Assembly (NCBI GenBank): GCA_050633305.1
Contig: JBOEGF010000021.1
Coordinates: 1-64,000, forward strand
Length of the DNA stretch: 64,000 nucleotides
Direction of reading: 5' to 3'
Source: Nannocystales bacterium
GTDB lineage: Bacteria > Myxococcota_A > Polyangia > Nannocystales > Nannocystaceae
Below the pieces are notes generated by a model. That model was not told where the DNA came from and did not search any database. It saw only the letters and a list, made by a program, of their open reading frames with translations. The stretch's first letter is position 1. Each line of letters begins with the position of its first letter. The position numbers and the translations under genes were made by a program. Shown here piece by piece: positions 1 to 24,044 of the stretch.

Positions 1-213
1 TCCATTGGAACAGAAGGCTGGGCGTCACGCCATATCGTCGCGCCGTTTCGGAGATGGTTCCGCCTGGCTTCGCGGCATCGTCGAGCAAGGCCCGCTTTTG
101 CTCGGCCGTGTAACGGCGCCGTCGGCCGGGTTGGGCTGGTTGTAAGTCTCGGAGTTCGTCTGACATCGGATTCGTCGTCTCGGACGTGTCCGGTTCAAAC
201 GGGGGCTACTACA
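1..213 (-). mobile_element. Left end of an IS3-family (IS2-like) insertion sequence, truncated by the window edge
   Basis: The minus strand from 213 reads TGTAGTAGCCCCCGTTTGAACCGGACA, a 5'-TG terminus resembling IS2-group ends. It lies 47 bp upstream of an OrfA-like reading frame. Confidence 0.8.
2..166 (-). CDS. IS3-family transposase OrfA (HTH), partial
   Basis: Translated by hand (not in the ORF track): MSDELRDLQPAQPGRRRRYTAEQKRALLDDAAKPGGTISETARRYGVTPSLLFQW. This matches the RRRyt.E.K...s.ARryGv..s.Lf.W pattern of HTH_Tnp_1. Confidence 0.88.
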   Translation of the reverse strand, partial: MSDELRDLQPAQPGRRRRYTAEQKRALLDDAAKPGGTISETARRYGVTPSLLFQW

Positions 214-358
214 TCCCGCCCATACCGCCGGGACCGCCGGGGCCTCCCGGTCCGCCGACCGATTTGACTCGGGCCTCAAGCCAGGCTCGCAGCAGGGCGC
301 AGCGGCGGGAACCAAATACAAGGAACTCGCGTCGTTTCTGAAGACGGTCAAGCTGTGA
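214..358 (+). pseudogene. Possible 3' remnant of a gene interrupted by the IS
   Basis: An open frame abuts the IS end (...PAHTAGTAGASRSADRFDSGLKPGSQQGAAAGTKYKELASFLKTVKL*) with plausible codon usage. Its TGA overlaps a GTG at 355. Confidence 0.4.
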
Positions 359-537
359 CCGCGGCGGCCTACTTTCGAAACAGCGGCCAGAGCAGCTCGT
401 GTTTCCACGAGTGCGGAGTCTCGTTCTCGACCCTGTACTCGGCACGGCACCGTGCCGCCTTCGTCAAACTCGCCGCCACCGAGCTCATGGCCGAGGAACG
501 GATCGTCAAGAAAAACCTCGGTCGGCTTTCGCTTAAG

Positions 538-609
538 GGAGCCAGGGGTGGGGCGGATGAGGACAGAGGCGGGCGCGCGGAGGGGTGGATGGGCGTCTGA
601 GGGACGCTC
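538..609 (+). repeat. 72-bp direct repeat, copy 1
   Basis: GGAGCCAGGGGTGGGGCGGATGAGGACAGAGGCGGGCGCGCGGAGGGGTGGATGGGCGTCTGAGGGACGCTC; 71/72 identical to 2254-2325. Confidence 0.97.
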
Positions 610-796
610 ACCTGTACACGATTCAGTGCGGAGTTTGCGTTGTTCGGTATGTGAGCGCTGGACGACGATTTGGGTCGCCGGCGCCTCGGGCTCTGCAGTT
701 AGCTACCGAGGCCGGAGAACGAAACTCCTTTCGCCCCTGTCCTTTCGAAGTCACGTCCCTTGACCGTTCGAGGACCAAGAGTAAGGCTGCTTCGCA

Positions 797-1264
797 ATGG
801 CGAAATTCAATCTCACCACCCTGACAATGGTAACCCTTGGGGCTATCGGGGCCATGTTCCCGCTATTCGATTCGACCGAGTCCGTGGCGAACGCACAAGT
901 TCCACTCGCAAAAACAGCACAAGCGGATGTGATCGCGTTCCAGGAACCCCTGGAGACTCCGGAACCGACCCCTATGATGAGCACCTGCGACCCGGAGGAC
1001 GACCTTTCTCAGTCCTGTTGTGACAACCTCGAAACAGCCGGGAACTTGGAGAGCGCCGAGCGTCTGGCTGGCGCTCTAGAGGGCTGTGACCCGGGTATCA
1101 ACGTATCGACTAGCGACGATTGCATCAACGCCACGTGCAACGGACCGACATCATGCAAGAAATTGAAGAAGGGGTGCGATCATTTTCTCGTTAAAGGAAA
1201 ATGGGGGTGCTCGCAGGAAACGGGCGGCGTTTGTACAAGCGGTACGTGCGACAAATGCTACTAG
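797..1264 (+). CDS. Secreted cysteine-rich protein (signal peptide, acidic region, cationic 8-Cys C-terminal domain)
   Basis: 155 aa with a hydrophobic N-terminus and 12 Cys. The C-terminus is CINATCNGPTSCKKLKKGCDHFLVKGKWGCSQETGGVCTSGTCDKCY. Confidence 0.75.
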   Translation: MAKFNLTTLTMVTLGAIGAMFPLFDSTESVANAQVPLAKTAQADVIAFQEPLETPEPTPMMSTCDPEDDLSQSCCDNLETAGNLESAERLAGALEGCDPGINVSTSDDCINATCNGPTSCKKLKKGCDHFLVKGKWGCSQETGGVCTSGTCDKCY

Positions 1265-6075: not shown

Positions 6076-7929
6076 CTAACGACGACGGCGTCGCATCATC
6101 AGGACCGGGATCAGAAGGAACGCGCCGTTCCAGCCCGAGCCGCCCTCGCTACAGCCGCAGCCGTCGTTTCCACCGTCTGAGGGAGCGCCGCCAGAGGAGG
6201 AATCGTCGGTTGCTGTGGTGTCGGCCGTGGTGGCCGGGGCGGTGGTTCCGCTGATGGAGGTCGAGCCTGGTCCTGGGCCTGTTCCACCACCCGTGGAGGA
6301 GGTGGAGCCCCCTCCGGAGCTCGATTCGCTGCCCGGACGGTCAAATCCCTCGATCGGGAGTTGCAGGACTTGCTCCGCCAGTGTGCTCGGCGTGGCGCCT
6401 CCCATCTCGTCGAAGAGGCCTGCGACGTGGGTCCCGGCCTCGCCCCCATTGGACTCGAGGAACGAAATGTACTCCGGCGTGTTGATCAGATACCGGACCC
6501 GAACCGTGAGCTCGAGGACGTCGTCGGTGGTGTCCTCGGGGGTCGCATCCATCAGGCCTTCGACGCCTGAGAAGTTGTACGTGTTGACGTCGAAGTTCGG
6601 CCACGTGCCGTCTGGCAGCAGCGTATAGCGGGTGCCGACAGGGTCGGTTTCGATGTCCGGCTGGGCGCCAAGCGGCGGGATGCGTGTGTCCTCGACCCAG
6701 TGGTTGTTTCGCAGCAGGTGAAACTGCGTGCCGTCGGCATAGTCTTCGCCAATGCCTTCGTAGGTGCGCAGCTGAGGGTCGACCTGCAGCCCGTCGGTGG
6801 GGTTCCATCCGCCGGAGCTAAACAGGACGTCGTCACCATAACGGCCCACAACCTCGACCCACATGACTCGCCCTTCGGAGTACCCGCTGGGAAGCTTGTG
6901 GCCAGTGTTGTTGGTGACCGTGACCTGAAGGTCCGAGAGCCCGTCGTCGACGTCGAACACCTTGGGTCCGCTCACCTCGAGCGATGCTGCGGTGGCGAGG
7001 AATTCGTCCATGCGCTCGATGTTGAGGTCGAAGAAGACGCTCGGCACCTCGCCTTGGCCCGCGTCGCCGTACTCGTTGCGCAACAACTCCAGCATGAAGC
7101 GGTTGGCGCCGTTGAAGTCGTGCCGGCGACCGCCACTTGCGTGGGTGTACTGGTTGAGGTGATCGGAGCAGCCCGGTTTGTCCGGGACCGCGGTCATGTG
7201 GCAGTCCTGGCAGGACGCGAAGTCCTCCCCGGGCTGCGCGTAGGCGCTGCCGAGCCACTCGGAGTAGGTCCGCTGCTCGTTGAAAGACGTGCCCATGCCG
7301 ACCCCGTCGTCGTCGACGCGCTCGGCGGGAGTGGTGACGTCGTGGCAGGTGCCACAGAACCGGGATTCACCGATGTACTCGTCGAAAACCCAGTCGTGGG
7401 GAGGCTCGGGGACACCATCGGTGAAGTCCCACGGTCCTCGACGAGGCACGTTGAACCCGTCGGGACCCAACGCGTCCGCGATGGTGTACTGCGCGTTGCC
7501 GGCCGGGACCCCGGGGTCTTCCATGACCCGGTGGCAAAACTCGCACTCGATCCCCTCCTGCTCCTGAGGGGTCAGCTCGCTCATGCTGATCGCTTCCGCG
7601 TTTCCATCCACGAACGCGCGGGGTGAGTGACAGCGAACGCAGACCTCAGTCTCCCCCGGGAGGTCTTGATCGGCGACCGCAACCCCCGCCCAGAACACAG
7701 GGTCCCGGGCGGAGTTGGCCATCATCGTCCCCTGCCAGGTGTTGAACGGGGAGTAGGGAGGGTCGTCGAGGTCGGCCCCGGCGTTGTTGTAGCCGTGGCA
7801 GAACTCGCACTGTCCTGCCTGAAAGAGGTCGTTGACCAACTCGCCGGGCTGCGTCGGGGCAGCCGCGGCGGAGGAGGAGAGCAGCGCCGTCGCGCCACAG
7901 ACTAGGAGATTCGTAGCGCGTCGCCGCAT
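6076..7929 (-). CDS. Multiheme (5 CxxCH) c-type cytochrome with MYXO-CTERM anchor
   Basis: Signal peptide; CEFCH, CVRCH, CEFCH, CGTCH, CQDCH; Ser/Thr/Gly linker; C-terminal GCGC-hydrophobic-RRRRR. Confidence 0.88.
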   Translation of the reverse strand: MRRRATNLLVCGATALLSSSAAAAPTQPGELVNDLFQAGQCEFCHGYNNAGADLDDPPYSPFNTWQGTMMANSARDPVFWAGVAVADQDLPGETEVCVRCHSPRAFVDGNAEAISMSELTPQEQEGIECEFCHRVMEDPGVPAGNAQYTIADALGPDGFNVPRRGPWDFTDGVPEPPHDWVFDEYIGESRFCGTCHDVTTPAERVDDDGVGMGTSFNEQRTYSEWLGSAYAQPGEDFASCQDCHMTAVPDKPGCSDHLNQYTHASGGRRHDFNGANRFMLELLRNEYGDAGQGEVPSVFFDLNIERMDEFLATAASLEVSGPKVFDVDDGLSDLQVTVTNNTGHKLPSGYSEGRVMWVEVVGRYGDDVLFSSGGWNPTDGLQVDPQLRTYEGIGEDYADGTQFHLLRNNHWVEDTRIPPLGAQPDIETDPVGTRYTLLPDGTWPNFDVNTYNFSGVEGLMDATPEDTTDDVLELTVRVRYLINTPEYISFLESNGGEAGTHVAGLFDEMGGATPSTLAEQVLQLPIEGFDRPGSESSSGGGSTSSTGGGTGPGPGSTSISGTTAPATTADTTATDDSSSGGAPSDGGNDGCGCSEGGSGWNGAFLLIPVLMMRRRRR

Positions 7930-7953
7930 GTGCTGGTCCTTGTTGTAGCGGGT

Positions 7954-9945
7954 TTAGCTGCGTTTACGTCGTCGCGCCAACGGAGCCACGCCCAAGCCCA
8001 GGAGCATCAACAAGAACGTTGCATCGGTCGAGGGGGTGGAGACAGAGCAACCGCCACCGCCACCGTTCGAGCCGGCAGTGTCGTCTGTATCGGTTTCGGA
8101 GTCGCTGTCCGAGCCCGCTGTGGTGGGGTCGACCGGGCCCGTCGTGCTGTCGGAGTCCGTGGTGGGTCCGTCGGTCGTGGAGCCGTCCCCCTGGCTGTCG
8201 CTGCCGCCAGAGCTGCTGCCGGCGTCGCAATCCGCGAGTCCTTCGTCGGCTTCGTCGTTGCAGTTGTTGTCGTTGCCGTCGCAGACCTCGGCGTTGCCGG
8301 GGAAGTTTTCGCCGTCGTCGTCGGCACAGTCGGTCCCGTCAGCCACGCGGCCTTCGGGGGCAATGCACGCAGCCTCTCCGGTCGCGGGGTCGCCGAAGCC
8401 GTCGCCGTCTTCGTCGAGGAAGAACTCGGTGGTGCATCCCTCGGTGACATCGATCGTCTGGTCACCGGTGACGTTTTCGATGTTGTCGACCTGGCCGGAG
8501 GGCCACGTGATGGTGACTGTGGCAGCGGTCTCGTCGGCGCCCAGACCGAAGTGCTCGATGAGGCTGTGGCTGATGCCGTAGCTCTCGCCGCCTCGAACCT
8601 CGCGAGTTTGAGTGCCCCACGACCCGGTGATCTGGATGACCGCACCGATGGCAGCAGCATTGCTCTCAACCCCGGTGAGGTGGACCTTGAGCCAATGGTT
8701 GTCGTTGCCCGGGTTGAGCAGCAGCAGGTCGGAGTTGCTGGAGGGGGCGTTGAAGCCGGAACCGAAGCCAGCCGAGATGTCGAGCGACCCGTCGTTGTTC
8801 AGGTCGCCGATGCCAAAGCTCTGCATGCGACTGCCCGCGGGCAGTGCCCCGTTGTCGGCGGTGAACGTCAGGTCACCGTTGTTCATCAGGAGCTGATGCG
8901 AGCCACCGCCCGATGAGATCAGCAGGTCCTGATATCCATCGTTGTCGAAGTCGGCGAAGTGGGTCTGAATGCCCGTGCCCACAGCATCGAGAGCGCCGCG
9001 GATGCCGGCCGCGTCGGCGATCGCGACGAAGTTGTTGTCGCCGTCGTTGGTGTAGAGGTCGCTCGCTGCATCCGTGGCCACGTAGTCGTGGTTGAGGATG
9101 AACGCATCGAGGTCCCCGTCGTTGTCGATGTCGGCGAAGTCGGACGCCCAGGTCTGACCGCGGGGGAGAAGTCCGCGAGCGTCGGCGACCTCGGAGTAGG
9201 AGCCGTCGCCGTTGTTCTCGAACAACAGGTTGAGGCGCTCGCCACTGTTGGCGTTGTTTACCCCTTGGCGGCACTTGGAGATGTACAGATCGACGTCCCC
9301 GTCGAGGTCGTAGTCGCTCCAGACGTTTCCGTAGTTGCCAGAGTTGTCGGAGGGAACCGTGGAGACGGGGTCGAGGGTCTCGTAGGTGTTGGAGAGGGCT
9401 CCGGTTCCGTCACCGTGGTAGACGAGGGACTTCGAGGTGTCGGCGCAGACGAAGAAGTCGAGGTCGCCGTCGTTGTTGATGTCGGCGAAGCTGGAGCACT
9501 GGACGAAGATTCCGGGCCCGGGAAGACTGGAGCGGGTGTAGTCGGTGCCGTCGTCGTTCGCGAGGTAGACCGCCTTGTCGTTGAAGGCGTCACCCGCGAA
9601 GATGTCGTTGTAGCCGTTGCCGTCGATGTCAGCGACGGCGATCGACCACGAGTTGAGCATCGTGTCGATCCGCTTGCTGATCGTGAACGAACCGTCCTCC
9701 TGCTGGTACTCGATCTCCAAGAAACGGGTGGCGTCGAGTCGAACGATGTCGTCGAGTCCATCCCCGTTCATATCGGCAACGGCCATCGGCGCGCCGCTGT
9801 GGGAGTCCTGGTTGTTCAGCTGTGCGCTCGAGTCCACGAACGGGTCCATCGCTTGGGCGCTGGTCGGTGCCAGGGCAACCAACGCCGCGCCGGCGAGGAC
9901 AGGAGGAACAACTTTGAGCCCAAGGATAGGTTTGATGGTGCGCAT
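7954..9945 (-). CDS. CRTAC1-like FG-GAP/ASPIC-UnbV protein with Cys-rich metal-binding motif and MYXO-CTERM
   Basis: Repeated D(I/F)(D/N)NDGxxD motifs; AIGA...HFGLG...ITWPSG (UnbV); DC...PGNAEVCDGNDNNC; C-terminal GGCS-hydrophobic-RRRKRS. Confidence 0.88.
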   Translation of the reverse strand: MRTIKPILGLKVVPPVLAGAALVALAPTSAQAMDPFVDSSAQLNNQDSHSGAPMAVADMNGDGLDDIVRLDATRFLEIEYQQEDGSFTISKRIDTMLNSWSIAVADIDGNGYNDIFAGDAFNDKAVYLANDDGTDYTRSSLPGPGIFVQCSSFADINNDGDLDFFVCADTSKSLVYHGDGTGALSNTYETLDPVSTVPSDNSGNYGNVWSDYDLDGDVDLYISKCRQGVNNANSGERLNLLFENNGDGSYSEVADARGLLPRGQTWASDFADIDNDGDLDAFILNHDYVATDAASDLYTNDGDNNFVAIADAAGIRGALDAVGTGIQTHFADFDNDGYQDLLISSGGGSHQLLMNNGDLTFTADNGALPAGSRMQSFGIGDLNNDGSLDISAGFGSGFNAPSSNSDLLLLNPGNDNHWLKVHLTGVESNAAAIGAVIQITGSWGTQTREVRGGESYGISHSLIEHFGLGADETAATVTITWPSGQVDNIENVTGDQTIDVTEGCTTEFFLDEDGDGFGDPATGEAACIAPEGRVADGTDCADDDGENFPGNAEVCDGNDNNCNDEADEGLADCDAGSSSGGSDSQGDGSTTDGPTTDSDSTTGPVDPTTAGSDSDSETDTDDTAGSNGGGGGCSVSTPSTDATFLLMLLGLGVAPLARRRKRS

Positions 9946-10075
9946 GATCTCCAACTCGACCGGGCCCAAACGTACCAGGCTTCGAGTGCAGAAGCAGGCG
10001 TGGAACGGCCGCTCTTTCGCACGCTGAATGTCTGAAGGATTTCGAATCCTCGGCCATTAACTCGGCGACGGAGGG

Positions 10076-11653
10076 TCAGCCCCACGCGTCGCGCCACGCG
10101 TTGCGGCCGCGGAGGGCTGGGAGCCCTTCACCATCGAGCAACGCGAGCGCCGCTGGGTATGCCCACGACGGATCGGACGCGATAGCGGCCATGGCCGCGC
10201 GCACGGCCTCGTTTTTTCGCGGCAAGAGCAGCGTGTCGTCGTCTGCGCCGCCTGTGCGTACCGGGCCTGAGCCCTCGCATAACGTGATCTGCGATGGAGC
10301 GCCTCGACCTTCGTTCAGCTGCGCGCGAAGTGCCTGTACGAGACGGTCTTCGTCCGAGGACAGCGCATCGTCGGGAACGGCGCGTGCGCCGAAGGGATGT
10401 CGCACCCTCGCGGCCATTCGGGCGACGGACTCACCCCAGTGATTGGCGGTTCCACGCGCAGAACGACCTCTCTCGCGAGGGTTGGGTGGGCGAAACCTGG
10501 AGTTGAGGACCTCGGTGAGCCCGCTGCGCTCCGTCGCATCGGCGATGAGGGTGAGCCGCTCTCCCAGTGCAAAATCTGCTGGATCTTGTGTGGGGTACAG
10601 CGCGGGGAGCGACTGCCCCTCGGATGCGTCGGACGTGGCGCGGCGTAGGTCGAGGAGACTCGCGAGGCGGGGCTCACCGCGATCGATCACCCGGAAGACC
10701 CTGACTTGGACGACCTTTTCGAGCTCGATACGGCGCCGGGCCGCGCTGAGCAGAAGTCGGGCGAAGCGAGTTCGCTGCTTGGCGTCCAGCGTTGGCGCTC
10801 GTGGCCCGAACGCGCATGCCAGCCGTACTGCACCAGCCACAATGTGGGCGATGTACGGCATTGTAGCCTCGCGGACCCGGGCGGCACTGAGATCGGTCGC
10901 TTCACTTCCCATCTCGATCGCGGCTTCGAACACGGGTGCGTCGGGAACGCTGACATGCCCGGTGATGATGCCGTGCTCGAGAATCCAGACGTGCGCGGTT
11001 TCCCCTTCATAAGGAAGACCGATTCGGCCGGGTGTGGGCGCACCGAGCGGGCCGTGCGCGAGGGTCTCGGACCAACTCGAAGGAACGGGTTCGCCGTCGA
11101 GTTGGATCCGGCCACCATCGAAGCGGGCAACACTTCGCAACCAGGTTCGGACCTGGCGGCGATCGAGCGCGGGGCTGTCGACCCGAACTGTGTTGCGACG
11201 GCGGCCGGTCGGTGGCTTTCGCTCGAGACTCGAGCGACGATCGTCGGCGCGAAGAATGAAATGTGCGTCGGGCGTCTCGACCTCGACCCGCAGCGTCTTC
11301 CTGGCGAGACCGCAGACCGCCAACAACGCGAGTCCACCCGCGTGCTCGAGCGCCGTGAGAGCAGCGTGCCGAGTCTCGTTGCTGGCCTCCGACTGCAGAA
11401 GCGAGGCGGTCGCTTGGAGCACGGTCGTGGAGATCGGGGCGCCGTCGTCGGTGACCTCGATCGAACCGCGCCGGGTACGAATCTCGACCGACGTCGCGCC
11501 ACCACGAAGCCCCCGGCGCGCGATCTCAGCGGGGATCTGCCAAGGTCCTTGCAGCTGAGCAGAAGAGAGCTTTCGAAGCTCGGAGCCGACATCGATCGTC
11601 AGCAGGGCGCCGAGGTCGATCGCATTCTTGCGGGCGGAAGGGTCCTCGGTCAC
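10076..11653 (-). CDS. HSP90/GHKL-like protein with degenerate ATP-binding motifs
   Basis: N-terminal GPWQIPAEIARRGLRGGATSVEI...VTDDGAP parallels the upstream gene's DPWIFVRELLQNSRDAGSTAVTF...CVDDGEG. Starts 4 bp after the upstream stop. Confidence 0.7.
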   Translation of the reverse strand: MTEDPSARKNAIDLGALLTIDVGSELRKLSSAQLQGPWQIPAEIARRGLRGGATSVEIRTRRGSIEVTDDGAPISTTVLQATASLLQSEASNETRHAALTALEHAGGLALLAVCGLARKTLRVEVETPDAHFILRADDRRSSLERKPPTGRRRNTVRVDSPALDRRQVRTWLRSVARFDGGRIQLDGEPVPSSWSETLAHGPLGAPTPGRIGLPYEGETAHVWILEHGIITGHVSVPDAPVFEAAIEMGSEATDLSAARVREATMPYIAHIVAGAVRLACAFGPRAPTLDAKQRTRFARLLLSAARRRIELEKVVQVRVFRVIDRGEPRLASLLDLRRATSDASEGQSLPALYPTQDPADFALGERLTLIADATERSGLTEVLNSRFRPPNPRERGRSARGTANHWGESVARMAARVRHPFGARAVPDDALSSDEDRLVQALRAQLNEGRGAPSQITLCEGSGPVRTGGADDDTLLLPRKNEAVRAAMAAIASDPSWAYPAALALLDGEGLPALRGRNAWRDAWG

Positions 11654-11657
11654 GGGG

Positions 11658-14609
11658 TCACGCTCGGGTGGAGGGGAAGGACTCGGCGAGCGCTTCTTTG
11701 GCGGCGCGACTGAGCAACGCTGCGCGACGTGGACGCTCGAGGTCGAGCCGATCGGCGAGTCGATCCAGCAGCATCAGCGCGCCTCGTTTGGGGCTGCGGG
11801 CGCTGACCGCAAGGGCGCTCTCGATGCCCGGCGCGGCAGGGTCGACGAGAACGATCCTGGAGCTGGGACAGTGCTTGAGCTTTGCCCCAAGTGCGCCGAG
11901 ATCGAGCACGGTGACCGCGGATGGCATCGCGGGGGCCAGGCTGACGCTCCAGTCTTCCCCGCGTCGAGCGAGCGTTGCGTTGACCGCTTTGGTCAGAGGC
12001 GACTGGGTCGCGCGATCGAGCCAGCCGGACCAACGGTCGAGGTCGATGGCGCCCAAGGAGTCCGCGACCGTGCTGCCCTCTGGGGTCGTGGCATCGAGCA
12101 CGACGGCTTTGGCGTCGACGGCCCGGCGCACCAGCGAAGGGCGTGCCGTGGTTGTGTACAGCCGTGATGCCGCCGCGAGCTCGCGCGCACGGTTGACGGA
12201 GATGGCCTTTCCGCCCACGCAAGGGACGATCGCGCGGGTAAACAGGGCGGACATCTGCGCGAATGCTCCGGGCTGCTGCAGCACGCCACGCAGAAGGCGG
12301 GAGAGGTCCGGAGTGTCGTCGAGCTTGACGGCGCGTGAGGTGCGGGCGCCGAGGATGGACCAGCCCGCGAGGACGAACAGAAGGAAGGGGACACCCCGCA
12401 CGATCCAGGGGAATCGAGCATCGAGGCTGGCCACGACATCGAGGAGGGTCTTCTCCCGTGCTGCCGCGGGCTCGTCGACCGCGGTCGCATCGCCGCTGAT
12501 CGGTGCGGCCGGAGGCTCCGCATCGCTCGATGCCGGTGCCGCGTCGGAGGGGAGCGCCGGAGTCGGAGCCGCGGCGGCGCGGGGCTCCGCGGCGGGGGAC
12601 GAGGGCAAGGTGGGAGGAACAGCGGCCGGGGCTCCGTCGCTCGCGTCGGCGATTCGCCAGGTCCCGGAGGTGTCCCGAAACTCGACCCAGGCGTGCAACC
12701 AAGGGTAGGTGGTTCCCGCGCTCCCGATGAAGCCGACCGCGAGTCGAGCTTCGACTCCGGCTGCGTGTAGAAGTCCGACGAGGACCCCGTTTTGGACATC
12801 GCAGTCGCCGGCCCCGATCGAGAGCGTGCGCGCGACGAACCCCGCGTCGAGGGCCTCGGTGTGCTGCTTCGAGACCTCGGCCGTGCGGTCGTAGCGAACG
12901 CGCTCGCGGACCTCTTCGAGCAGGATGGAGACCCGCTCCTCGATCATCTTTGGCTTGAGTGCCCGCGCCAAGTCTCGGAGTTCGTTGGGGAGGGCCAGCG
13001 GCGTGGATGGTGGAACGGCGGGACCAGGGTCTGGACCCGCGACGCTGCGGTAGCGGGCGAGCACCGGGACTGCGTCGCTCAGCACAGCCACGGGGTGCCC
13101 ATCGGCGGTCATGTGGAGGGACTGCCGCTCATCCCCAACGACCAAGGACTGCGACACCAGGCGGTGGCCGGTTGGAACGAGCAGCCGGACGGCGCCCGGT
13201 CCCTGCAGCAGTACCTCGATGTCGGTGCAGTTCCGGTCGCAGGTCAGGGCGCGGTAGGGTTGCACGCGGGTGAGGTCCGACTCCATCAGTGGAGAGCCGT
13301 CATCCGCAAGGGAGGAGGAGACCAATGAGGCGAAGTGCAGGCGCTTGTTCGCTGGCGCGTAGCGAAGCTGGATCGGTTCGGCGGCAGCCGGTTCGAGGAC
13401 GTCGACTCGGGGGCCTCGGTATCGCGCTGCGAGGTCTTGATAGGGTCGGGGGGCCGCGATCGCGGGACCCGCGGCGGGCTCGTTCGATTCGGGCTGTACG
13501 ATCGTCTCCGGACTGGTGCCTTGGGTTTGGCCCCACAGCACCCACCCGACCACCAGCGCTGCGACACCGCCAAGGGCCGAACCCAGCAAGGTGCGGAGCA
13601 TCAACGACTCGCGCAGGCGGTCGGCGAAAAAATCCCACATGCGTCGGGGCAGGGAGCGTGGGCGGACTTGGGCGAGCTGACGGTCGATCAGCCGCTCGAG
13701 TTCCTGCTGCGCGAGCTTCACGAGCCGGGTGAGCGCTCGGTTGTCGCGTGCGTCGGAGCGACTGAGCATGACCTGAAGCTCGTCGCTCTCGAGTAGCGCT
13801 TGCGGAGCGAGTCCTCCGGGAAGCTCGGGAAACTGGACCCGCATTCGAGCGGTGTGGCGTCCCGTCGGTGCGACGAGGTCGTCGAGTGACGCCGCGGCTC
13901 GGACTCGAAGTCCACGGGAGAAAAGCTCGACTCGGGGCGCTGGCCCGAGACCAACGACACCGCGGACCGAGCCTCGGCGGAACGACGAGCTGGGTGCCTC
14001 GAGGGCGAACTCGGCGTTGGCGCGTCGTCCGTTGACCGTGATCGGAAGCGGCGTGCGGCCGTTGTCCCGTCGGTGGAGATAGCGGGCCGCTTGCCACACG
14101 GCGTCGTAGACCCGGTGCTCGAGGCGACCGTCCCCGCCGCGGCGTTCGAGGGTGATCTCGGTCCCCGGCTGTGTGAGGCCGGAGACCCTCTCGGCGTTTT
14201 CGAGCGAGCCATCCAGACGCAGACCCCACGAACCGCCGGCCTTGGTGCAACACCGGATCGTGATGTGGGCGGGGTCGAAGCGCAGGATGGACCAGAACCC
14301 CACGCCGAACTTGCCGGCCTGATTGCTCGAGGTCTCTTTGCTGGAGGCGTAGAGCGCAAACAGGTAGCGCCGCGCATGTTCGAACGACATGCCTTCGCCG
14401 TCGTCGACACAGCGCACCCTTTCCCATCCGTCGCGCTCCTCGACCCGGAACGTCACCGCGGTGGAGCCGGCGTCTCGGGAGTTTTGCAGCAGCTCCCGGA
14501 CGAAGATCCAGGGGTCGGGTCCGTAGCGGTCGGCTTCTTGGCGGGCACGTTCGCGGAAGGCCGCGGAGCGCTGCGGAGAGCCTCCGACCGTCGAGCGAGG
14601 CGTCGACAC
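11658..14609 (-). CDS. GHKL (HSP90-like) ATPase fused to a transglutaminase-like domain between two TM helices
   Basis: ATPase motifs RELLQNSRDA, DDGEGM, GKFGVGF and GTEITL; TM1; GDCDV...G(V)EARL..G...HAWVE...W..AD triad; TM2; C-terminal domain. GTG 14609 is the likely start because further upstream the ORF overlaps another gene. Confidence 0.85.
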   Translation of the reverse strand: MSTPRSTVGGSPQRSAAFRERARQEADRYGPDPWIFVRELLQNSRDAGSTAVTFRVEERDGWERVRCVDDGEGMSFEHARRYLFALYASSKETSSNQAGKFGVGFWSILRFDPAHITIRCCTKAGGSWGLRLDGSLENAERVSGLTQPGTEITLERRGGDGRLEHRVYDAVWQAARYLHRRDNGRTPLPITVNGRRANAEFALEAPSSSFRRGSVRGVVGLGPAPRVELFSRGLRVRAAASLDDLVAPTGRHTARMRVQFPELPGGLAPQALLESDELQVMLSRSDARDNRALTRLVKLAQQELERLIDRQLAQVRPRSLPRRMWDFFADRLRESLMLRTLLGSALGGVAALVVGWVLWGQTQGTSPETIVQPESNEPAAGPAIAAPRPYQDLAARYRGPRVDVLEPAAAEPIQLRYAPANKRLHFASLVSSSLADDGSPLMESDLTRVQPYRALTCDRNCTDIEVLLQGPGAVRLLVPTGHRLVSQSLVVGDERQSLHMTADGHPVAVLSDAVPVLARYRSVAGPDPGPAVPPSTPLALPNELRDLARALKPKMIEERVSILLEEVRERVRYDRTAEVSKQHTEALDAGFVARTLSIGAGDCDVQNGVLVGLLHAAGVEARLAVGFIGSAGTTYPWLHAWVEFRDTSGTWRIADASDGAPAAVPPTLPSSPAAEPRAAAAPTPALPSDAAPASSDAEPPAAPISGDATAVDEPAAAREKTLLDVVASLDARFPWIVRGVPFLLFVLAGWSILGARTSRAVKLDDTPDLSRLLRGVLQQPGAFAQMSALFTRAIVPCVGGKAISVNRARELAAASRLYTTTARPSLVRRAVDAKAVVLDATTPEGSTVADSLGAIDLDRWSGWLDRATQSPLTKAVNATLARRGEDWSVSLAPAMPSAVTVLDLGALGAKLKHCPSSRIVLVDPAAPGIESALAVSARSPKRGALMLLDRLADRLDLERPRRAALLSRAAKEALAESFPSTRA

Positions 14610-14649
14610 CGCGCGTACTATAGCAGTTCTGCGCGGAGTGTCGGCGGGC

Positions 14650-15305: not shown

Positions 15306-16052
15306 ATGGAACTGTCGAGTCTCAAGGTCATCGTTACCGGGGCAGCCCGAGGGATGGGAGCCCATTTTGCGACCCAACTCGCCGAGGCGGGTGCGAGTGT
15401 GACCGCAGCCGATGTTGATGAGGGGGGGCTCGCTTCTCTACCGCAAGGCATCCATCGGACGCGTTGCGATGTGAGCAACGAGGACGACTGTGAAGCCCTG
15501 GTGGCGTTCGCCCACGACGCGATGGGGGGCCTCAACGGGCTCATCAACAACGCCGGGATTCTTCGGGACCAGCTTGTCGTCAAGAAAGACCGGGAGACCG
15601 GCGCCATCAAGAAATTCAAGACCGAGGATTGGAACTCGGTTCTCGGGGTGAACTTGAGCGGGGCGTTCTTCATGGTCCGCGAGGTCGTGGCGAAGATGGT
15701 CGAGCAGGGAGACAAGCCTGGTGTCATCGTGAACATGTCTTCGGTGGCGCGGCACGGGAATCGTGGCCAGTCGAACTACGTCAGCGCGAAGGCTGCGTTG
15801 GCCGCGAACACCGTCACGTGGGCTCGCGAGTTCGCGAAGTACGGGGTACGGGTCGGTGCCATTGCGCCGGGCATGGTGGAGACCCCCATGACGCGGGGCA
15901 TGAAACAGTCCGCGCGTGATGCCTTGGTGGCGGCCATTCCTGTGGGTCGTATTGGGCTGCCCGATGACCTCTGGCTCGCGGTGAAGTTCATCATCGAGTG
16001 CGACTACTTCAATGGCCGAACCGTCGACGTTGACGGTGGATTGGTGATGTAA
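15306..16052 (+). CDS. SDR oxidoreductase (FabG-like)
   Basis: Motifs TGAARGMG, NNAG, catalytic YVSAK, IAPG and VDGG. Confidence 0.93.
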   Translation: MELSSLKVIVTGAARGMGAHFATQLAEAGASVTAADVDEGGLASLPQGIHRTRCDVSNEDDCEALVAFAHDAMGGLNGLINNAGILRDQLVVKKDRETGAIKKFKTEDWNSVLGVNLSGAFFMVREVVAKMVEQGDKPGVIVNMSSVARHGNRGQSNYVSAKAALAANTVTWAREFAKYGVRVGAIAPGMVETPMTRGMKQSARDALVAAIPVGRIGLPDDLWLAVKFIIECDYFNGRTVDVDGGLVM

Positions 16053-22146: not shown

Positions 22147-23643
22147 TCAGGAACGCTTGTTCTGTGCGCGCGACAACGCCTCGGAAACCGCTGAGATGAG
22201 GGCGGCTCTTCCCACCGGTTTGGGCACCATGGCATCCACGAGCGCCATCTCGGCGGCACCCACTGGGTCGCCGGAGAAGAACAGGACCTGGGCGCCCGGG
22301 GAGTTGGCGCGCACGTCCGGCAACAGCTCGATGCCGCGCTCATGTCCGAGCGTTCGGTCCAAGAGCACGACGTCGTAGCGGGAGTCGAGTGCGGTACGAG
22401 CCGATGCGAGGTCGCCGACCGTGGTCACACTCGCCCCGGCCTGCTGCAGGATTCGTTTGACCAGGCGCTGGATGATCGGCTCGTCGTCCACGAGCAAGAC
22501 CTGCCGCCCACAGAGGTCTCCATCGGCTGTCTTGTGCGTCTGCTTGGGTGGCTTCATCGCTGGTCTTGTTTCAGATTCGGACGTCTCGGGTGGGGAGGAG
22601 AGGGGAAGCAGGACCACGAACTCCGCGCCGCCCCCCTCGCGCGCTCGGTATGCGATCTGGCCGTTCACCTGGCGTAGCGACTCTGCCGATGTCGCAAGGC
22701 CGAGTCCGGTCCCGTCCTTCCCTTTTGAAGTGACAAAGGGCTGGAACAAGACCGGCTCGATATCCGCGGGAACACCCTCACCGTTGTCGCTGACGATGAG
22801 CTCCAACGTGGGTACACCGAGGACTTCTTCGCCTGTCCCTCGGAGCCAGATTGTGGGGCTCTTGCGCCCCGCGACAGCGTGGTTGGCGTTGACGAGCAGG
22901 TTGCTGAGAACCTGCTCCAGCATTCCTGGGCTTTGCCGTACCCACAGCCCCGCTGGAACGGAGTGCATGAACTCCAGGCCGTCGACGGCCACGCGGCGCA
23001 ACCCCTCGACGGCCTCCTCGCAGAGTTTGTGGACCTCGCAGAGCTCCGAACGCTCGTTGTCATAGGAGTGGGCGAGGCCGCGGAGGTCGCCCACGACGAC
23101 CTTGGCTCGGTGGGCGGCCTGCTGCGCATCTATGATGTCGCGAAGCACTCCGTCGTCGCCGTGGGCCTGGTGGGTGAGTCGTGTCTGTGCATCTTCCAGA
23201 CACGCAACGATGATCGTCAGCATGTTGTTGAAGTTGTGCGCGACCCCAGCGCTGAAGCGGCCGATCGCTTCCAAGCGTTCCGCGGCCGCGAGCCGCAGGC
23301 GGAGCATTCGCTCGTGGGTGACGTCCAACATCGCCCCTTGCCACACGTGTCCTTCTCGTCGGCCTGCGAAACGCAGGTAGCGGCGGCCTTCGGGACCCGA
23401 GAAACGGATCGGCCCTGAGGCCCACGTTTCGTCCTCGGACCACGCCGGGAGTTCGCCGTCTTCAAGGCCAGCTTCGAGTTTGGAAACGAACGTGCGGGTA
23501 GGCTCGGGGCTGGCGCATTGGAGCAACTCTGTGGCCACGGGGTTCCACGACGCGACGTCGGCGGAGAAATCCAATCTCCACACCCCCACCTCGAGTGCGC
23601 GTGTGGCGGCTTCGAGCGAGGGGCCCCAGTGGTCTCCGCTCAT
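22147..23643 (-). CDS. Hybrid histidine kinase / response regulator
   Basis: H-box GVAHNFNN, N-box SNLLVNA, DNGEG, FQPFVTSK, GTGLGL; REC domain VLLVDDE...LLD...KP. Confidence 0.93.
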   Translation of the reverse strand: MSGDHWGPSLEAATRALEVGVWRLDFSADVASWNPVATELLQCASPEPTRTFVSKLEAGLEDGELPAWSEDETWASGPIRFSGPEGRRYLRFAGRREGHVWQGAMLDVTHERMLRLRLAAAERLEAIGRFSAGVAHNFNNMLTIIVACLEDAQTRLTHQAHGDDGVLRDIIDAQQAAHRAKVVVGDLRGLAHSYDNERSELCEVHKLCEEAVEGLRRVAVDGLEFMHSVPAGLWVRQSPGMLEQVLSNLLVNANHAVAGRKSPTIWLRGTGEEVLGVPTLELIVSDNGEGVPADIEPVLFQPFVTSKGKDGTGLGLATSAESLRQVNGQIAYRAREGGGAEFVVLLPLSSPPETSESETRPAMKPPKQTHKTADGDLCGRQVLLVDDEPIIQRLVKRILQQAGASVTTVGDLASARTALDSRYDVVLLDRTLGHERGIELLPDVRANSPGAQVLFFSGDPVGAAEMALVDAMVPKPVGRAALISAVSEALSRAQNKRS

Positions 23644-24044
23644 CGTGCGTCCTCCTGGAGTCGAGCGAACAGCCAGTCGTCGGCCTCGGCGGAGGTCTGC
23701 TTCGCAACGGTCGAGAAGGATGGTCTCGCAGCCCACATCATGGCTTGGGTCGCGAGCCGGACCGCGGGTGACTCGACGACGACCGACACCGCGACCACGT
23801 GGCGGGTGAGGATGGGTTCGTGTCGCTTCATCCAGGCCACGGACTTCCTCACGTAGCGAGGTGGGTACGCGGTCAAGGGCCCTGCGTGGAGCCGGAGCAA
23901 CACCCGTTCGCGAAGCTGCAGCGCAGCCAGCAGGGAGTCGAGGTAGTCGTCGAAACCGCGGTCGGTGATCGGCCCGACAACATGCACACCCACGAGGGGG
24001 AGGTTGGAGACATCCACCTCGGCATAGACATCATCGGCGCCCAT
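23640..24044 (-). CDS. STAS/SEC14 (SpoIIAA-like) small protein
   Basis: 134 aa with a PLV.V...G...AVSVVVESPAVR...A..WL pattern; ATGA overlap with the kinase. Confidence 0.6.
   Translation of the reverse strand: MGADDVYAEVDVSNLPLVGVHVVGPITDRGFDDYLDSLLAALQLRERVLLRLHAGPLTAYPPRYVRKSVAWMKRHEPILTRHVVAVSVVVESPAVRLATQAMMWAARPSFSTVAKQTSAEADDWLFARLQEDAR

What the first reader, a model, noticed from the sequence alone, without database searches (positions are those of the whole stretch)
10076..14609. Two-gene HSP90-like unit: membrane-spanning ATPase-transglutaminase plus a degenerate HSP90-like partner
Seen: gene 1 has all four GHKL motifs, a TM helix (~13530-13605), a Cys-His-Asp transglutaminase-like triad (Cys 12801, His 12693, Asp 12645), a second TM helix (~12350-12410) and a further soluble domain. 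Gene 2 starts 4 bp downstream and lacks the Asn of ExxxN and both glycine motifs (AEIARRG, DDGAP). The two proteins have similar ends (IVLVDPAAPGI vs LLLPRKNEAV, loosely like HtpG LElNp.Hp). Known: GHKL ATPases act as dimers, and many bacterial transglutaminase-like domains are cysteine proteases or amide-bond enzymes. Inference: an extracytoplasmic catalytic domain has been inserted as a membrane loop into an HSP90-like protein. An active/inactive heterodimer could then couple cytoplasmic ATP to periplasmic proteolysis or cross-linking, for envelope remodelling or defence. I know of no description of this architecture.
Basis: partly seen in the sequence, partly recalled or inferred. Interest (0 to 1): 0.82.

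Follow-up and report, generated by a model that had tools for sequence, protein, structure and literature searches.

The report
Membrane Hsp90-like ATPase carrying periplasmic transglutaminase
Two coupled genes encode an Hsp90-shaped ATPase with a TgpA-like transglutaminase domain looped through the membrane into the periplasm, and a soluble Hsp90-shaped partner with a dead ATP site; this conserved, unstudied pair may use cytoplasmic ATP to control an enzyme outside the cell membrane.

Summary
Gene 1 (11658..14609, minus strand, 983 aa) has an intact GHKL ATP site, two membrane helices, an invariant Cys603-His639-Asp655 triad and a further cytoplasmic domain. Gene 2 (10076..11653, 525 aa) starts 4 nt after gene 1's stop. 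It has no family hit, and Arg replaces the Mg-binding Asn.

- Gene 1's cytoplasmic parts (1-335 and 756-983) together align along full-length TRAP1/HtpG (Z 17-18).
- The segment between the two helices matches the periplasmic domain of Pseudomonas aeruginosa TgpA (Z 17-18, about 250 of 278-288 residues).
- Gene 2 is a complete three-domain Hsp90 fold.

The pair is strictly linked. Gene 1 lies directly upstream of gene 2 in 55 of 55 assessable species genomes, mostly Nannocystaceae and other Myxococcota, with two MAGs labelled Acidobacteriota. No other flanking gene is conserved.

Heterodimer formation and ATP-to-periplasm coupling remain inference, because the complex predictor was unavailable. 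Five literature searches found no description. Earlier notes of this scan describe the same module on other DNA, so it is not new to the scan. It is an undescribed variant of TgpA-type membrane transglutaminase systems, with an Hsp90-fold ATPase pair in place of MoxR-DUF58.

The parts
11658..14609 (-). Gene 1, 983 aa: membrane Hsp90-fold ATPase with an inserted periplasmic TgpA-like transglutaminase domain
   Evidence: ORF; 983-aa record P0003; Pfam HATPase_c_3 and Transglut_core; AF2 model, pLDDT 79; fold matches
13890..14609 (-). Gene 1 residues 1-240: GHKL (Bergerat-fold) ATP-binding domain with E39, N43, D69-G71-G73, G99-G102-G104 and T150
   Evidence: Pfam E 6.8e-11; residues invariant in 77 of 77 and 40 of 40; fold match to GRP94, TRAP1 and HtpG N-domains, Z 16-17, rmsd 2.3-3
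13605..13889 (-). Gene 1 residues 241-335: first part of the Hsp90-like middle region. It holds a highly conserved but poorly modelled loop (G250...R284, R288, R291, containing 'LSRSDAR') and helices leading into TM1
   Evidence: Invariant columns; pLDDT<50 for 248-288; aligns to the soluble paralogue up to residue 298, E 1.2e-16; model 5..318 aligns to human TRAP1 84..436
13530..13604 (-). TM helix 1 (residues 336-360)
   Evidence: Hydropathy; model helix 336-359; K+R mean 3.17 before and 0.86 after
12606..13460 (-). Periplasmic TgpA-like domain (residues 384-668): beta-sandwich plus transglutaminase core, with C603 (12801..12803), H639 (12693..12695), D655 (12645..12647) and the conserved C457/C461 pair
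   Evidence: VIA Z 17.4-18.1, 250-253 aligned of 278-288, to PDB 6g4h/6g49; Pfam Transglut_core; triad invariant
12450..12605 (-). Pro/Ala-rich disordered linker (residues 669-720), of variable length in the family
   Evidence: pLDDT<50; length 35-112, median 81, over 77 members for columns 660-730
12345..12410 (-). TM helix 2 (residues 734-755)
   Evidence: Hydropathy; model helix 734-754; K+R mean 1.83 before and 3.49 after
11661..12344 (-). Gene 1 residues 756-983: cytoplasmic C-terminal region that continues the Hsp90 fold (rest of the middle domain to about 861, C-terminal domain 871-976)
   Evidence: Model 4..789 aligns to zebrafish TRAP1 99..482, 5..858 to 100..566 and 4..975 to 99..717; 871..976 aligns to HtpG CTD 1sf8, Z 6.2; no sequence-level match
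11654..11657 (-). 4-nt spacer (CCCC) between gene 1's stop and gene 2's GTG start
   Evidence: In relatives, a start codon overlapping gene 1's stop (the -4 offset) is available in most of the 55 loci, and 46 of 55 have a start within -11..+30 nt
10076..11653 (-). Gene 2, 525 aa: soluble full-length Hsp90-fold paralogue with a degenerate ATP site
   Evidence: ORF; AF2 pLDDT 88.4; Foldseek TRAP1/GRP94/Hsp90 E 4e-16; VIA 1..525 aligns to TRAP1 92..719; no TM segment
10904..11653 (-). Gene 2 residues 1-250: degenerate GHKL domain. E43 (11525..11527) is kept, the Asn position is R47 (11513..11515) and the Asp position is R50
   Evidence: hhalign to the gene 1 N-domain, prob 94-96%, E 1.2e-7 / 8.5e-9; PDB profile hit to the MutL N-domain, E 3.7e-4; column counts
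10079..10903 (-). Gene 2 residues 251-525: Hsp90-like middle (to about 391) and C-terminal (392-525) domains
   Evidence: VIA: 19..391 aligns to human TRAP1 91..552; 1..525 aligns to zebrafish TRAP1 92..719
14617..14644 (-). Sigma-70-like promoter match just upstream of gene 1's GTG start (consensus match only)
   Evidence: 1 site found against 0.3 expected

Best explanation
The unit is a two-gene, translationally coupled module.

Gene 1 is an Hsp90-fold clamp ATPase with a cassette inserted in its middle domain: TM helix, TgpA-like transglutaminase domain, Pro/Ala linker, TM helix. The ATPase N-domain, both halves of the middle domain and the C-terminal domain stay in the cytoplasm. The Cys-His-Asp enzyme domain sits in the periplasm. 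Gene 2 is a soluble paralogue with the same Hsp90 fold, whose ATP site has been replaced by conserved arginines.

Shown here: the domain architecture, the topology prediction, conservation of the catalytic residues, degeneracy of the partner's ATP site, and strict gene linkage.

Inferred: the two proteins pair through their Hsp90-like C-terminal and N-terminal domains into a permanently asymmetric dimer with one live and one dead ATP site. ATP-driven closure of this clamp moves the two membrane helices that leave its middle domain. That movement switches or positions the periplasmic transglutaminase or thiol-protease domain on an unknown envelope substrate. In this reading the Hsp90-like pair does for this TgpA-like domain what the co-operonic MoxR ATPase and DUF58 protein are presumed to do for canonical TgpA.
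For: Architecture:
- Pfam HATPase_c_3 and Transglut_core.
- Gene 1 model 391..668 aligns to the TgpA periplasmic domain, Z 17.4-18.1.
- Gene 1 model 4..975 aligns to full-length TRAP1 99..717 (422 aligned, Z 17.8) and to HtpG 2..626 (431 aligned, Z 16.0), with the break at TRAP1 residues ~447-482.
- Gene 2 aligns along full-length TRAP1, GRP94 and Hsp90.
- Gene 1 without the insert is 563 aa, against 525 aa for gene 2.

Paralogy: gene 2 residues 36-229 align to gene 1 residues 32-234, hhalign prob 94%, E 1.2e-7.

Live and dead sites: gene 1's motif residues are invariant in 77 of 77 and 40 of 40. Gene 2 has Arg at the Asn position in 71 of 72 and no Asn in 53 readable further sequences. E43, R46, Q39, H96 and E103 remain (near-)invariant, which points to selection rather than decay.

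Topology: 76 of 77 members carry more K+R on the predicted cytoplasmic flanks; there is a conserved Cys pair in the loop.

Linkage: gene 1 is directly upstream on the same strand in 55 of 55 assessable of 56 loci. The pair is adjacent in G210, G270, G040 and G264. A start within -11..+30 nt of gene 1's stop exists in 46 of 55 loci. No other flanking family occurs in more than 17 of 57 loci.

Parallel: the same genome carries a canonical MoxR(AAA_3)-DUF58-TgpA(TgpA_N+Transglut_core+DUF4129) operon. The TgpA periplasmic domain has transglutaminase activity in vitro (PMC3507681, abstract and section 13).
Against: The Hsp90-like nature of the middle and C-terminal parts rests on predicted structures only. 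Profile searches with gene 1 residues 185-335 and 756-983 against PDB sequences found nothing relevant. hhalign between the C-terminal halves of the two proteins gives E 0.37-0.57. The match of the isolated C-terminal domain to the HtpG CTD is only Z 6.2.

Region 248-288 of gene 1, where a catalytic-loop Arg would lie, is modelled at pLDDT<50. No Hsp90, HtpG or sacsin sequence model reaches its curated cut-off.

A gene 1 homodimer is equally compatible with the fold. The direction of signalling (inside-out or outside-in) is not addressed by any result. The substrate and the chemistry (cross-linking, proteolysis or deamidation) are unknown.
Confidence: 0.55

Rival explanations
1. Gene 1 works as a homodimer, as Hsp90 does, with four TM helices and two periplasmic domains. 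Gene 2 is not a subunit of the clamp. It is a regulator or adaptor, for example a pseudo-enzyme that caps or competes for gene 1's dimer interfaces, or that delivers clients.
For: GHKL clamps and Hsp90 are typically homodimers (established knowledge, recalled). Gene 1 has its own complete Hsp90-like C-terminal region. In Nannocystis species the two genes are 50-350 nt apart rather than overlapping. No sequence similarity is detectable between the two C-terminal halves.
Against: Linkage is strict (55 of 55) and overlapping stop/start codons are frequent, which suits stoichiometric co-assembly. Gene 2 keeps the whole three-domain fold, including a C-terminal domain, and conserved surface-like residues in the dead site. 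None of this excludes the rival.
Confidence: 0.2
2. The module is a membrane-tethered chaperone or an outside-in sensor. The periplasmic TgpA-like domain anchors the protein or senses the state of the envelope. The cytoplasmic Hsp90-like clamp then acts on cytoplasmic or membrane-protein clients, so information flows inward rather than outward.
For: The Hsp90 fold is that of a client-binding chaperone. GHKL domains in histidine kinases are driven by periplasmic sensors (established knowledge). The insert leaves the middle domain, which in Hsp90 takes part in client binding (recalled).
Against: The Cys-His-Asp triad is invariant in 117 of 117 sequences examined, which argues for catalysis and not only binding. 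The canonical TgpA partner genes are also cytoplasmic ATPase machinery, suggesting that energy is supplied to the periplasmic enzyme.
Confidence: 0.15
3. The module is an anti-phage or conflict system related to Tiamat (TmtA) or other GHKL-containing defence genes, with the transglutaminase-like domain as effector.
For: PADLOC TmtA model PDLC03968 matches gene 1 at E 5.9e-13.
Against: The match covers only residues 13-132 (the shared GHKL N-domain) of a 1486-position model. The pair is single-copy. It is syntenic with an SDR gene within the family and present across cultured and uncultured Nannocystaceae, which looks like vertical inheritance. GC content resembles the surroundings. No mobile or defence genes were seen among the neighbours scanned.
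Confidence: 0.05

Closest known systems
TgpA (PA2873) of Pseudomonas aeruginosa and the MoxR-DUF58-TgpA operon
   Same: The periplasmic domain has the same fold over almost its whole length (Z 17.4-18.1, 250-253 of 278-288 residues). It has the same Cys-His-Asp triad and is likewise held between membrane helices with cytoplasmic parts on both sides. TgpA is also encoded with a cytoplasmic chaperone-like ATPase; this genome's own copy is at G000:C9. The PA2875-2874-2873 co-transcription is described in PMC3507681 section 13.
   Different: There is no TgpA_N (DUF3488) five-helix membrane domain and no DUF4129 (no Pfam hit). The ATPase is an Hsp90-fold GHKL protein fused in cis, not a separate AAA+ MoxR, and the second gene is a pseudo-Hsp90, not DUF58. 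Sequence similarity to this genome's own TgpA is weak (hhalign E 8.8e-5, core only).
Hsp90 family (HtpG, TRAP1, GRP94, Hsp82)
   Same: Both proteins have the N-domain, middle-domain, C-terminal-domain fold order. Gene 1 has a Bergerat ATP site. Its conserved 'LSR' loop resembles the Hsp90 catalytic-loop motif, but that resemblance is from the sequence and my recall and was not tested.
   Different: No Hsp90 or HtpG sequence model reaches its cut-off (best 26 bits against 455). Gene 1 is an integral membrane protein with an about 420-residue insert in the middle domain. The partner has a dead ATP site. Both are shorter than HtpG (563 and 525 aa of Hsp90-like sequence).
Soluble sacsin-like / HATPase_c_3 proteins of Myxococcota (three paralogues in this genome)
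   Same: They are the closest sequence relatives of gene 1's N-terminal 300 residues (hhalign E 1.2e-16; the genome search E ~1e-19). They have similar Pfam and NCBIfam near-hits and a similar size (532-575 aa) to gene 1 without its insert.
   Different: They have no membrane helices, no transglutaminase domain and no linked pseudo-ATPase gene. The one adjacent ORF tested is unrelated. They were found in 59 further genomes of the 301 sampled, where the full architecture was not.
Asymmetric GHL-type dimers (TRAP1 asymmetric closed state; MutL-alpha type heterodimers with unequal ATPases) - recalled, not tested here
   Same: The idea that one clamp with two non-equivalent ATP sites can work, here fixed genetically as a live and a dead subunit.
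   Different: Those are soluble machines acting on proteins or DNA in the same compartment. Heterodimer formation is not shown here.
Tiamat defence protein TmtA (PADLOC)
   Same: Shares the GHKL N-domain (E 5.9e-13).
   Different: Only about 120 of 1486 profile positions match. The rest of the architecture and the genomic behaviour differ.

Membership tests
Hsp90 / HtpG family | Sequence model over its curated cut-off (Pfam HSP90 PF00183; NCBIfam HtpG NF003555 / HSP90 family NF010683) | tested here: not met
   Gene 1: no PF00183 hit at E<=1; NF010683 26.2 bits against a cut-off of 455. Gene 2: no hit.
Hsp90 / HtpG family | Bergerat-fold N-domain with ExxxN, DxGxG, GxxGxG and a Thr motif | tested here: met
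   Gene 1: all invariant in 77 of 77 and 40 of 40. Gene 2: not met; the Asn position is Arg and the Gly motifs are degenerate.
Hsp90 / HtpG family | Three-domain N-M-C fold along the whole chain | tested here: met
   Predicted models only. Gene 1 4..975 aligns to TRAP1 99..717, Z 17.8, 422 aligned. Gene 2 1..525 aligns to TRAP1 92..719, Z 15.5-16; Foldseek E 4e-16.
Hsp90 / HtpG family | Middle-domain catalytic-loop arginine contacting ATP | tested here: inconclusive
   Invariant R284 lies in a conserved 'MLSRSDAR' stretch, but the region is modelled at pLDDT<50 and the profile search of 185-335 against PDB found nothing. The equivalence is my inference from a recalled Hsp90 motif.
Hsp90 / HtpG family | Dimerisation through the C-terminal domain | not testable with these tools
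The only evidence is fold resemblance of 871..976 to the HtpG CTD, Z 6.2.
TgpA-type membrane transglutaminase | Periplasmic beta-sandwich plus transglutaminase-core fold with a Cys-His-Asp triad | tested here: met
   Z 17.4-18.1 to 6g4h/6g49; Pfam PF01841 44 bits against a cut-off of 23; triad invariant.
TgpA-type membrane transglutaminase | N-terminal TgpA_N (DUF3488) multi-helix membrane domain and C-terminal DUF4129 | tested here: not met
   Neither family hits gene 1 at E<=1. Both hit this genome's canonical TgpA.
TgpA-type membrane transglutaminase | Operon with MoxR (AAA_3) and DUF58 | tested here: not met
   Neighbours here are an SDR, an FG-GAP/ASPIC protein and a multihaem cytochrome. 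The MoxR-DUF58-TgpA operon is elsewhere, on C9.
Sacsin-like N-terminal ATP-binding domain (NF047352 / Pfam SACS) | Score over the curated cut-off | tested here: not met
   NF047352 45.5 bits against 50; PF25794 24.5 against 32.8. These are near misses, so it is a relative rather than a member.
MutL | Full-length MutL model and a C-terminal endonuclease/dimerisation domain | tested here: not met
   TIGR00585 28.5 bits against 180, N-domain only. The gene 2 profile hits the MutL N-domain only, at E 3.7e-4.
Tiamat TmtA (PADLOC) | Match along the TmtA profile | tested here: not met
   Only profile positions 36-152 of 1486 match.

The most novel reading that the evidence does not exclude
An Hsp90-type molecular clamp has been built into the cytoplasmic membrane. 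A fixed live/dead heterodimer hydrolyses ATP in the cytoplasm and transmits the clamp's closing motion through two helices that leave its middle domain. This mechanically gates a transglutaminase or thiol-protease domain in the periplasm, a compartment without ATP. It would be a new principle of inside-out energy coupling for envelope enzymes, and a natural, genetically fixed version of the asymmetric Hsp90 cycle.
Probability: 0.3. Interest if true: 0.88.

Novelty: new variant of a known kind. Interest (0 to 1): 0.7.

Why it matters
Hsp90-fold ATPases are known as soluble clamps, and I know of no integral-membrane version. The periplasm has no ATP, so ways of powering or controlling periplasmic enzymes from inside the cell are of general interest.

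TgpA is critical for the viability of P. aeruginosa (PMC3507681, abstract), but its role and its link to its ATPase partners are unknown. A variant in which the ATPase is fused in cis gives a direct handle on that question.

The obligate pseudo-ATPase partner would be a natural test case for the idea that an Hsp90-type clamp needs only one active site.

The pair occurs in cultured strains: Nannocystis exedens, N. pusilla, N. punicea, Plesiocystis pacifica, Enhygromyxa salina and Paraliomyxa miuraensis. Genetics and biochemistry are therefore feasible.

Tried and rejected
- Complex prediction (gene 1 756-983 with gene 2) was not available, so binding is untested.
- Sequence similarity between the C-terminal halves of the two proteins: hhalign E 0.37 and 0.57, not significant.
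- Profile searches of gene 1 185-335 (A4) and 756-983 (A3) against PDB sequences found no hit and one chance hit at E 0.88.
- ESM Atlas on residues 756-983: best scores 0.87 or lower. A cluster with 12% PF00183 scored 0.83, which is a lead only.
- No RNA holder is listed for the locus.
- The 477-aa ORF beside a soluble paralogue was tested as a possible second 'dead partner'. It is unrelated (E 0.91 and 0.57).
- A conserved third gene: none. The best flanking family is an SDR in 17 of 57 loci, on either side.
- The downstream FG-GAP/ASPIC protein and multihaem cytochrome are not conserved with the pair.
- Fused gene 1-gene 2 forms: none among the best 120 of 476 gene 1 hits (lengths 849-1205), and none among the best 150 of 571 gene 2 representatives (lengths 220-574). 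Lower-ranked hits were not seen.
- Literature: five full-text searches found no description of an Hsp90/GHKL-transglutaminase membrane protein. The searches were Hsp90+transglutaminase+transmembrane+Myxococc, GHKL+transglutaminase+bacterial, HATPase_c_3+transglutaminase, Hsp90-like+transmembrane+periplasmic+pseudo-ATPase, and Hsp90+membrane-anchored+bacterial+paralog+HtpG. Subscription journals are not covered.
- The TgpA paper does not mention MoxR, ATPase or DUF58 (0 occurrences). The operon content was therefore tested on this genome instead.
- The first phylum-wide genome search failed and was repeated with fewer genomes. That run used a stricter first look, so its tallies are a floor.
- The search of earlier findings by place and by sequence returned nothing.
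Full report
WHAT IS THERE

The window is the first 64 kb of contig C21 of an 11.0-Mb genome in 90 contigs. Its relatives are Nannocystaceae (names).

On the minus strand, gene 1 runs 14609..11658. The database record is 983 aa and starts at GTG 14609 (P0003); a longer frame is open upstream. Gene 2 runs 11653..10076 (525 aa). Gene 1's TGA is followed by CCCC and then gene 2's GTG.

Upstream lies a divergent short-chain dehydrogenase (15306..16052 +). Downstream lie an FG-GAP/ASPIC protein (7954..9969 -) and a multihaem cytochrome (6076..7929 -).

GENE 1 BY SEQUENCE

Pfam finds HATPase_c_3 (E 6.8e-11) and Transglut_core (E 2.6e-11). NCBIfam gives only sub-threshold hits: sacsin-like ATP-binding domain 45.5 bits against 50, MutL, and 'HSP90 family protein' 26 bits against 455. 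PADLOC's TmtA (Tiamat) model matches the N-terminal ~120 residues only.

In an alignment of 77 homologues (A2) the following are invariant:
- the ATP-site residues E39, N43, D46, D69, G71, G73, G99, G102, G104 and T150;
- the triad C603, H639, D655;
- several residues after the second membrane helix: R759, D768, D839, E844, D856, D858, W860, R918 and R962.

Hydropathy gives two membrane segments, 335-360 and 735-755. In 76 of 77 members, K+R are enriched on the N-terminal side of TM1 and the C-terminal side of TM2. The means are 3.17 and 3.49, against 0.86 and 1.83 on the loop side. This predicts N-in, loop-out, C-in. A Cys457/Cys461 pair in the loop is kept in 73 and 74 of 77, which suits an oxidising compartment.

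GENE 2 BY SEQUENCE

No Pfam, NCBIfam or PADLOC family matches, and there is no membrane segment.

A 72-sequence alignment (A1) shows a conserved N-terminal block, 'GPWQIPAELVRRALRxGA ... DDGxGI'. Profile-profile comparison aligns gene 2 residues 36-229 with gene 1 residues 32-234 in register (prob 94%, E 1.2e-7; 96%, E 8.5e-9 on sub-alignments). A profile search of PDB sequences finds MutL N-domains (E 3.7e-4). Gene 2's N-domain is therefore a GHKL domain.

Its ATP site is not intact. The Glu is kept (71 of 72). The Mg-binding Asn position is Arg (71 of 72, plus 1 Ser). The following Asp position is Arg (69 of 72). The second Gly of DxGxG is G in 49 and P in 21 of 72.

In 54 further species genomes the Asn position reads R 47, Q 3, F 1, L 1, C 1 and one gap, and D69 is lost in 14. 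Q39, R46, H96 and E103 stay (near-)invariant. The site looks remodelled under selection, not decaying.

PREDICTED STRUCTURES

Gene 2 folds confidently (pLDDT 88.4). Foldseek's best matches are full-length TRAP1, GRP94 and Hsp90 (E 4e-16 and weaker, ~630 alignment columns). VIA-align maps model 19..391 onto human TRAP1 91..552 (N plus middle domains, Z 17) and 1..525 onto zebrafish TRAP1 92..719 (441-457 residues, Z 15.5-16). Gene 2 is thus a compact but complete three-domain Hsp90 fold.

Gene 1 (pLDDT 79) has these confident regions:
- an N-domain;
- helices leading into TM1 (336-359);
- a loop domain at 384-660;
- TM2 (734-754);
- a C-terminal region at 758-977.

Its low-confidence regions are the ATP lid (86-103), residues 232-288, and the Pro/Ala-rich linker (669-717).

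Without using Foldseek, the search of 48,161 representative chains puts the periplasmic domain of P. aeruginosa TgpA first. Model 391..666 aligns to 6g4h with Z 17.4 and 250 of 278 residues. It also finds GRP94, TRAP1 and HtpG at Z 15-17 with model ranges running from residue ~4 to ~861, that is, across the insert. The isolated HtpG C-terminal domain matches 871..976 at Z 6.2.

The second look at Foldseek's top 1000 chains sharpens this:
- model 5..318 aligns to human TRAP1 84..436;
- 4..789 aligns to zebrafish TRAP1 99..482;
- 5..858 aligns to 100..566;
- 4..975 aligns to 99..717 (422 of 601 residues, Z 17.8);
- 5..975 aligns to an HtpG model 2..626 (431 residues, Z 16.0).

The TM-TgpA-linker-TM cassette (about residues 336-755) therefore sits inside the Hsp90-like middle domain, at a point aligned to zebrafish TRAP1 ~447-482. 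Without it, gene 1 has 563 Hsp90-like residues, close to gene 2's 525.

Caveat: this is fold-level evidence from predicted models. Sequence profiles of 185-335 and 756-983 find nothing in the PDB. The two C-terminal halves show no significant profile similarity (E 0.37-0.57). The isolated C-terminal-domain match is weak.

The invariant stretch 'MLSRSDAR' (R284), and 'TLSRET' in a soluble paralogue, recalls the Hsp90 catalytic loop as I remember it. That region is poorly modelled and I could not test the equivalence.

DISTRIBUTION AND LINKAGE

Gene 1 has 476 hits among the 8000 scored candidates. Of the best 120, 114 carry both Pfam domains; 6 shorter calls carry only PF01841. Gene 2 has 76 hits by the word-indexed search. 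In the exhaustive search it has 571 representatives at 50% identity (271 at E<=1e-30), and all of the best 150 are 220-574 aa long.

The genome has one copy of each. It also has three soluble 532-575-aa paralogues of the N-terminal ~300 residues.

In a sample of 301 Myxococcota genomes, 65 matched at E<=1e-10. Only 6 held the long architecture: G000, two of three other genomes of the same family, and three genomes of a family in another class. The other 59 matched the N-domain only. This run used a stricter first look, so the counts are a floor.

Gene 2 is adjacent in G210, G270 and G040. In G264 the search missed it, but the 502-aa ORF overlapping gene 1's end is a gene 2 homologue (hhalign prob 99.5%, E 2.7e-23). 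In G279 the two genes lie on separate short contigs.

A pattern scan of 185,579 species genomes with gene 2 returned 56 loci. In 55 of them gene 1 lies directly upstream on the same strand. In the remaining one, gene 2 starts 118 nt from the contig end. Of the 55:
- 40 are single near-full-length matches;
- 8 are cut by contig ends;
- 7 are split into pieces, mostly at the variable linkers.

The titles name cultured Nannocystis, Enhygromyxa, Plesiocystis and Paraliomyxa strains and many MAGs. Two MAGs are labelled Acidobacteriota/Thermoanaerobaculales.

A start codon for gene 2 lies within -11..+30 nt of gene 1's stop in 46 of 55 loci, most often overlapping it by 4 nt. Nannocystis species have spacers of 50-350 nt.

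No other flanking gene family is shared by more than 17 of 57 loci. The upstream SDR is kept only within the family, and in the other class the upstream gene is a PLD-like protein. The conserved unit is exactly two genes.

COMPARISON WITH KNOWN SYSTEMS

TgpA (PA2873) is an inner-membrane protein. Its periplasmic domain (residues 180-544) lies between membrane helices, has transglutaminase activity in vitro, and is co-transcribed with PA2875-PA2874 (PMC3507681: abstract; section 13). That paper does not name the partner families.

I therefore looked in this genome. It has a canonical operon of MoxR-type AAA_3 ATPase, DUF58 and TgpA (TgpA_N + Transglut_core + DUF4129) with overlapping gene ends on contig C9. 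The window's gene 1 lacks TgpA_N and DUF4129 and is only weakly similar to that TgpA (E 8.8e-5, core only).

The new module therefore works like a TgpA system in one respect: a periplasmic thiol enzyme is tied to cytoplasmic chaperone-type ATPase machinery. It is not a member of the TgpA family as defined by its membrane and C-terminal domains. It has the Hsp90 fold without belonging to the Hsp90/HtpG sequence family.

MECHANISM

Shown: the architecture, the predicted topology, a live ATP site in gene 1, a dead and remodelled site in gene 2, an intact triad, and obligate linkage with frequent stop/start overlap.

Inferred: a 1:1 asymmetric clamp whose ATP-driven closure moves the two helices leaving the middle domain and so controls the periplasmic domain.

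Rivals:
- a gene 1 homodimer regulated by gene 2;
- an inward-signalling or membrane-tethered chaperone;
- a defence system, which I consider unlikely because the TmtA match covers the N-domain only and inheritance looks vertical and single-copy.

The chemistry (cross-linking, proteolysis or deamidation) and the substrate are unknown.

NOVELTY

Five full-text searches found no description. Subscription literature is not covered.

Earlier notes of this scan describe the same two-gene module on other genomes (e1-1246724, e1-1393173, e1-1122274) and related Hsp90-like/TgpA-like fusions in other phyla (e1-1318463, e1-2176372). They reached the same reading. They are AI notes, not independent evidence, but they mean the module is not new to the scan.

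- the mapping of the insert to a point inside the Hsp90-like middle domain;
- the continuation of the fold after TM2 to a C-terminal domain;
- the full three-domain fold of the partner;
- the residue-level pattern of the dead site across 126 sequences;
- the co-existence of a canonical MoxR-DUF58-TgpA operon in the same genome.

Noticed in passing
G000 contig C9, locus L029 4742-9038 (-): A canonical MoxR (AAA_3) - DUF58 - TgpA (TgpA_N + Transglut_core + DUF4129) operon with overlapping gene ends lies in the same genome, so the organism has both kinds of TgpA-type system.
   Followed up: partly
L003 1447-3045 (+), L004 1435-3162 (+), L005 469-2085 (-) (G000 contigs C18, C14, C8): Three soluble 532-575-aa sacsin/Hsp90-like GHKL paralogues with intact motifs. 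Such proteins were the only match in 59 of the 301 Myxococcota genomes sampled. Their function is unknown.
   Followed up: partly
window 6076-9969 (-): An FG-GAP/ASPIC (UnbV) repeat protein with a MopE-like metal-binding motif is followed by a 617-aa multihaem cytochrome, directly downstream of the pair. They are not conserved with it.
   Followed up: partly
L067 and L081: Two MAG contigs labelled Acidobacteriota / Thermoanaerobaculales (534 kb and 70 kb) carry the complete pair. In their gene 2 the Asn position is Cys or Leu. This could be true presence in a second phylum or a labelling issue.
   Followed up: no
L082 (Nannocystaceae STL-MYX3) and L085 (Nannocystis pusilla Na p29): Matches to both genes are broken into several pieces. 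This could be frameshifts from long-read assembly errors or decay of the pair in these genomes.
   Followed up: no
L070, L074, L077, L078, L083, L085 (Nannocystis species): Gene 1's stop is 50-350 nt from gene 2's start, instead of the usual 4-nt overlap, so coupling may differ in this genus.
   Followed up: no
window 14617-14644 (-): A sigma-70-like promoter match ends 8 nt before gene 1's GTG. If real, the mRNA would be nearly leaderless and the upstream in-frame ATG (14666) would not be used.
   Followed up: no
L025 5309-7309 (+) (G040): In the other Myxococcota class, a PLD-like (two HKD motifs) protein sits directly upstream of gene 1 on the same strand.
   Followed up: no
window 22147-23736 (-) and 24737-27799 (-): A hybrid histidine kinase/receiver protein, and a 1020-aa ORF that I did not examine.
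   Followed up: no
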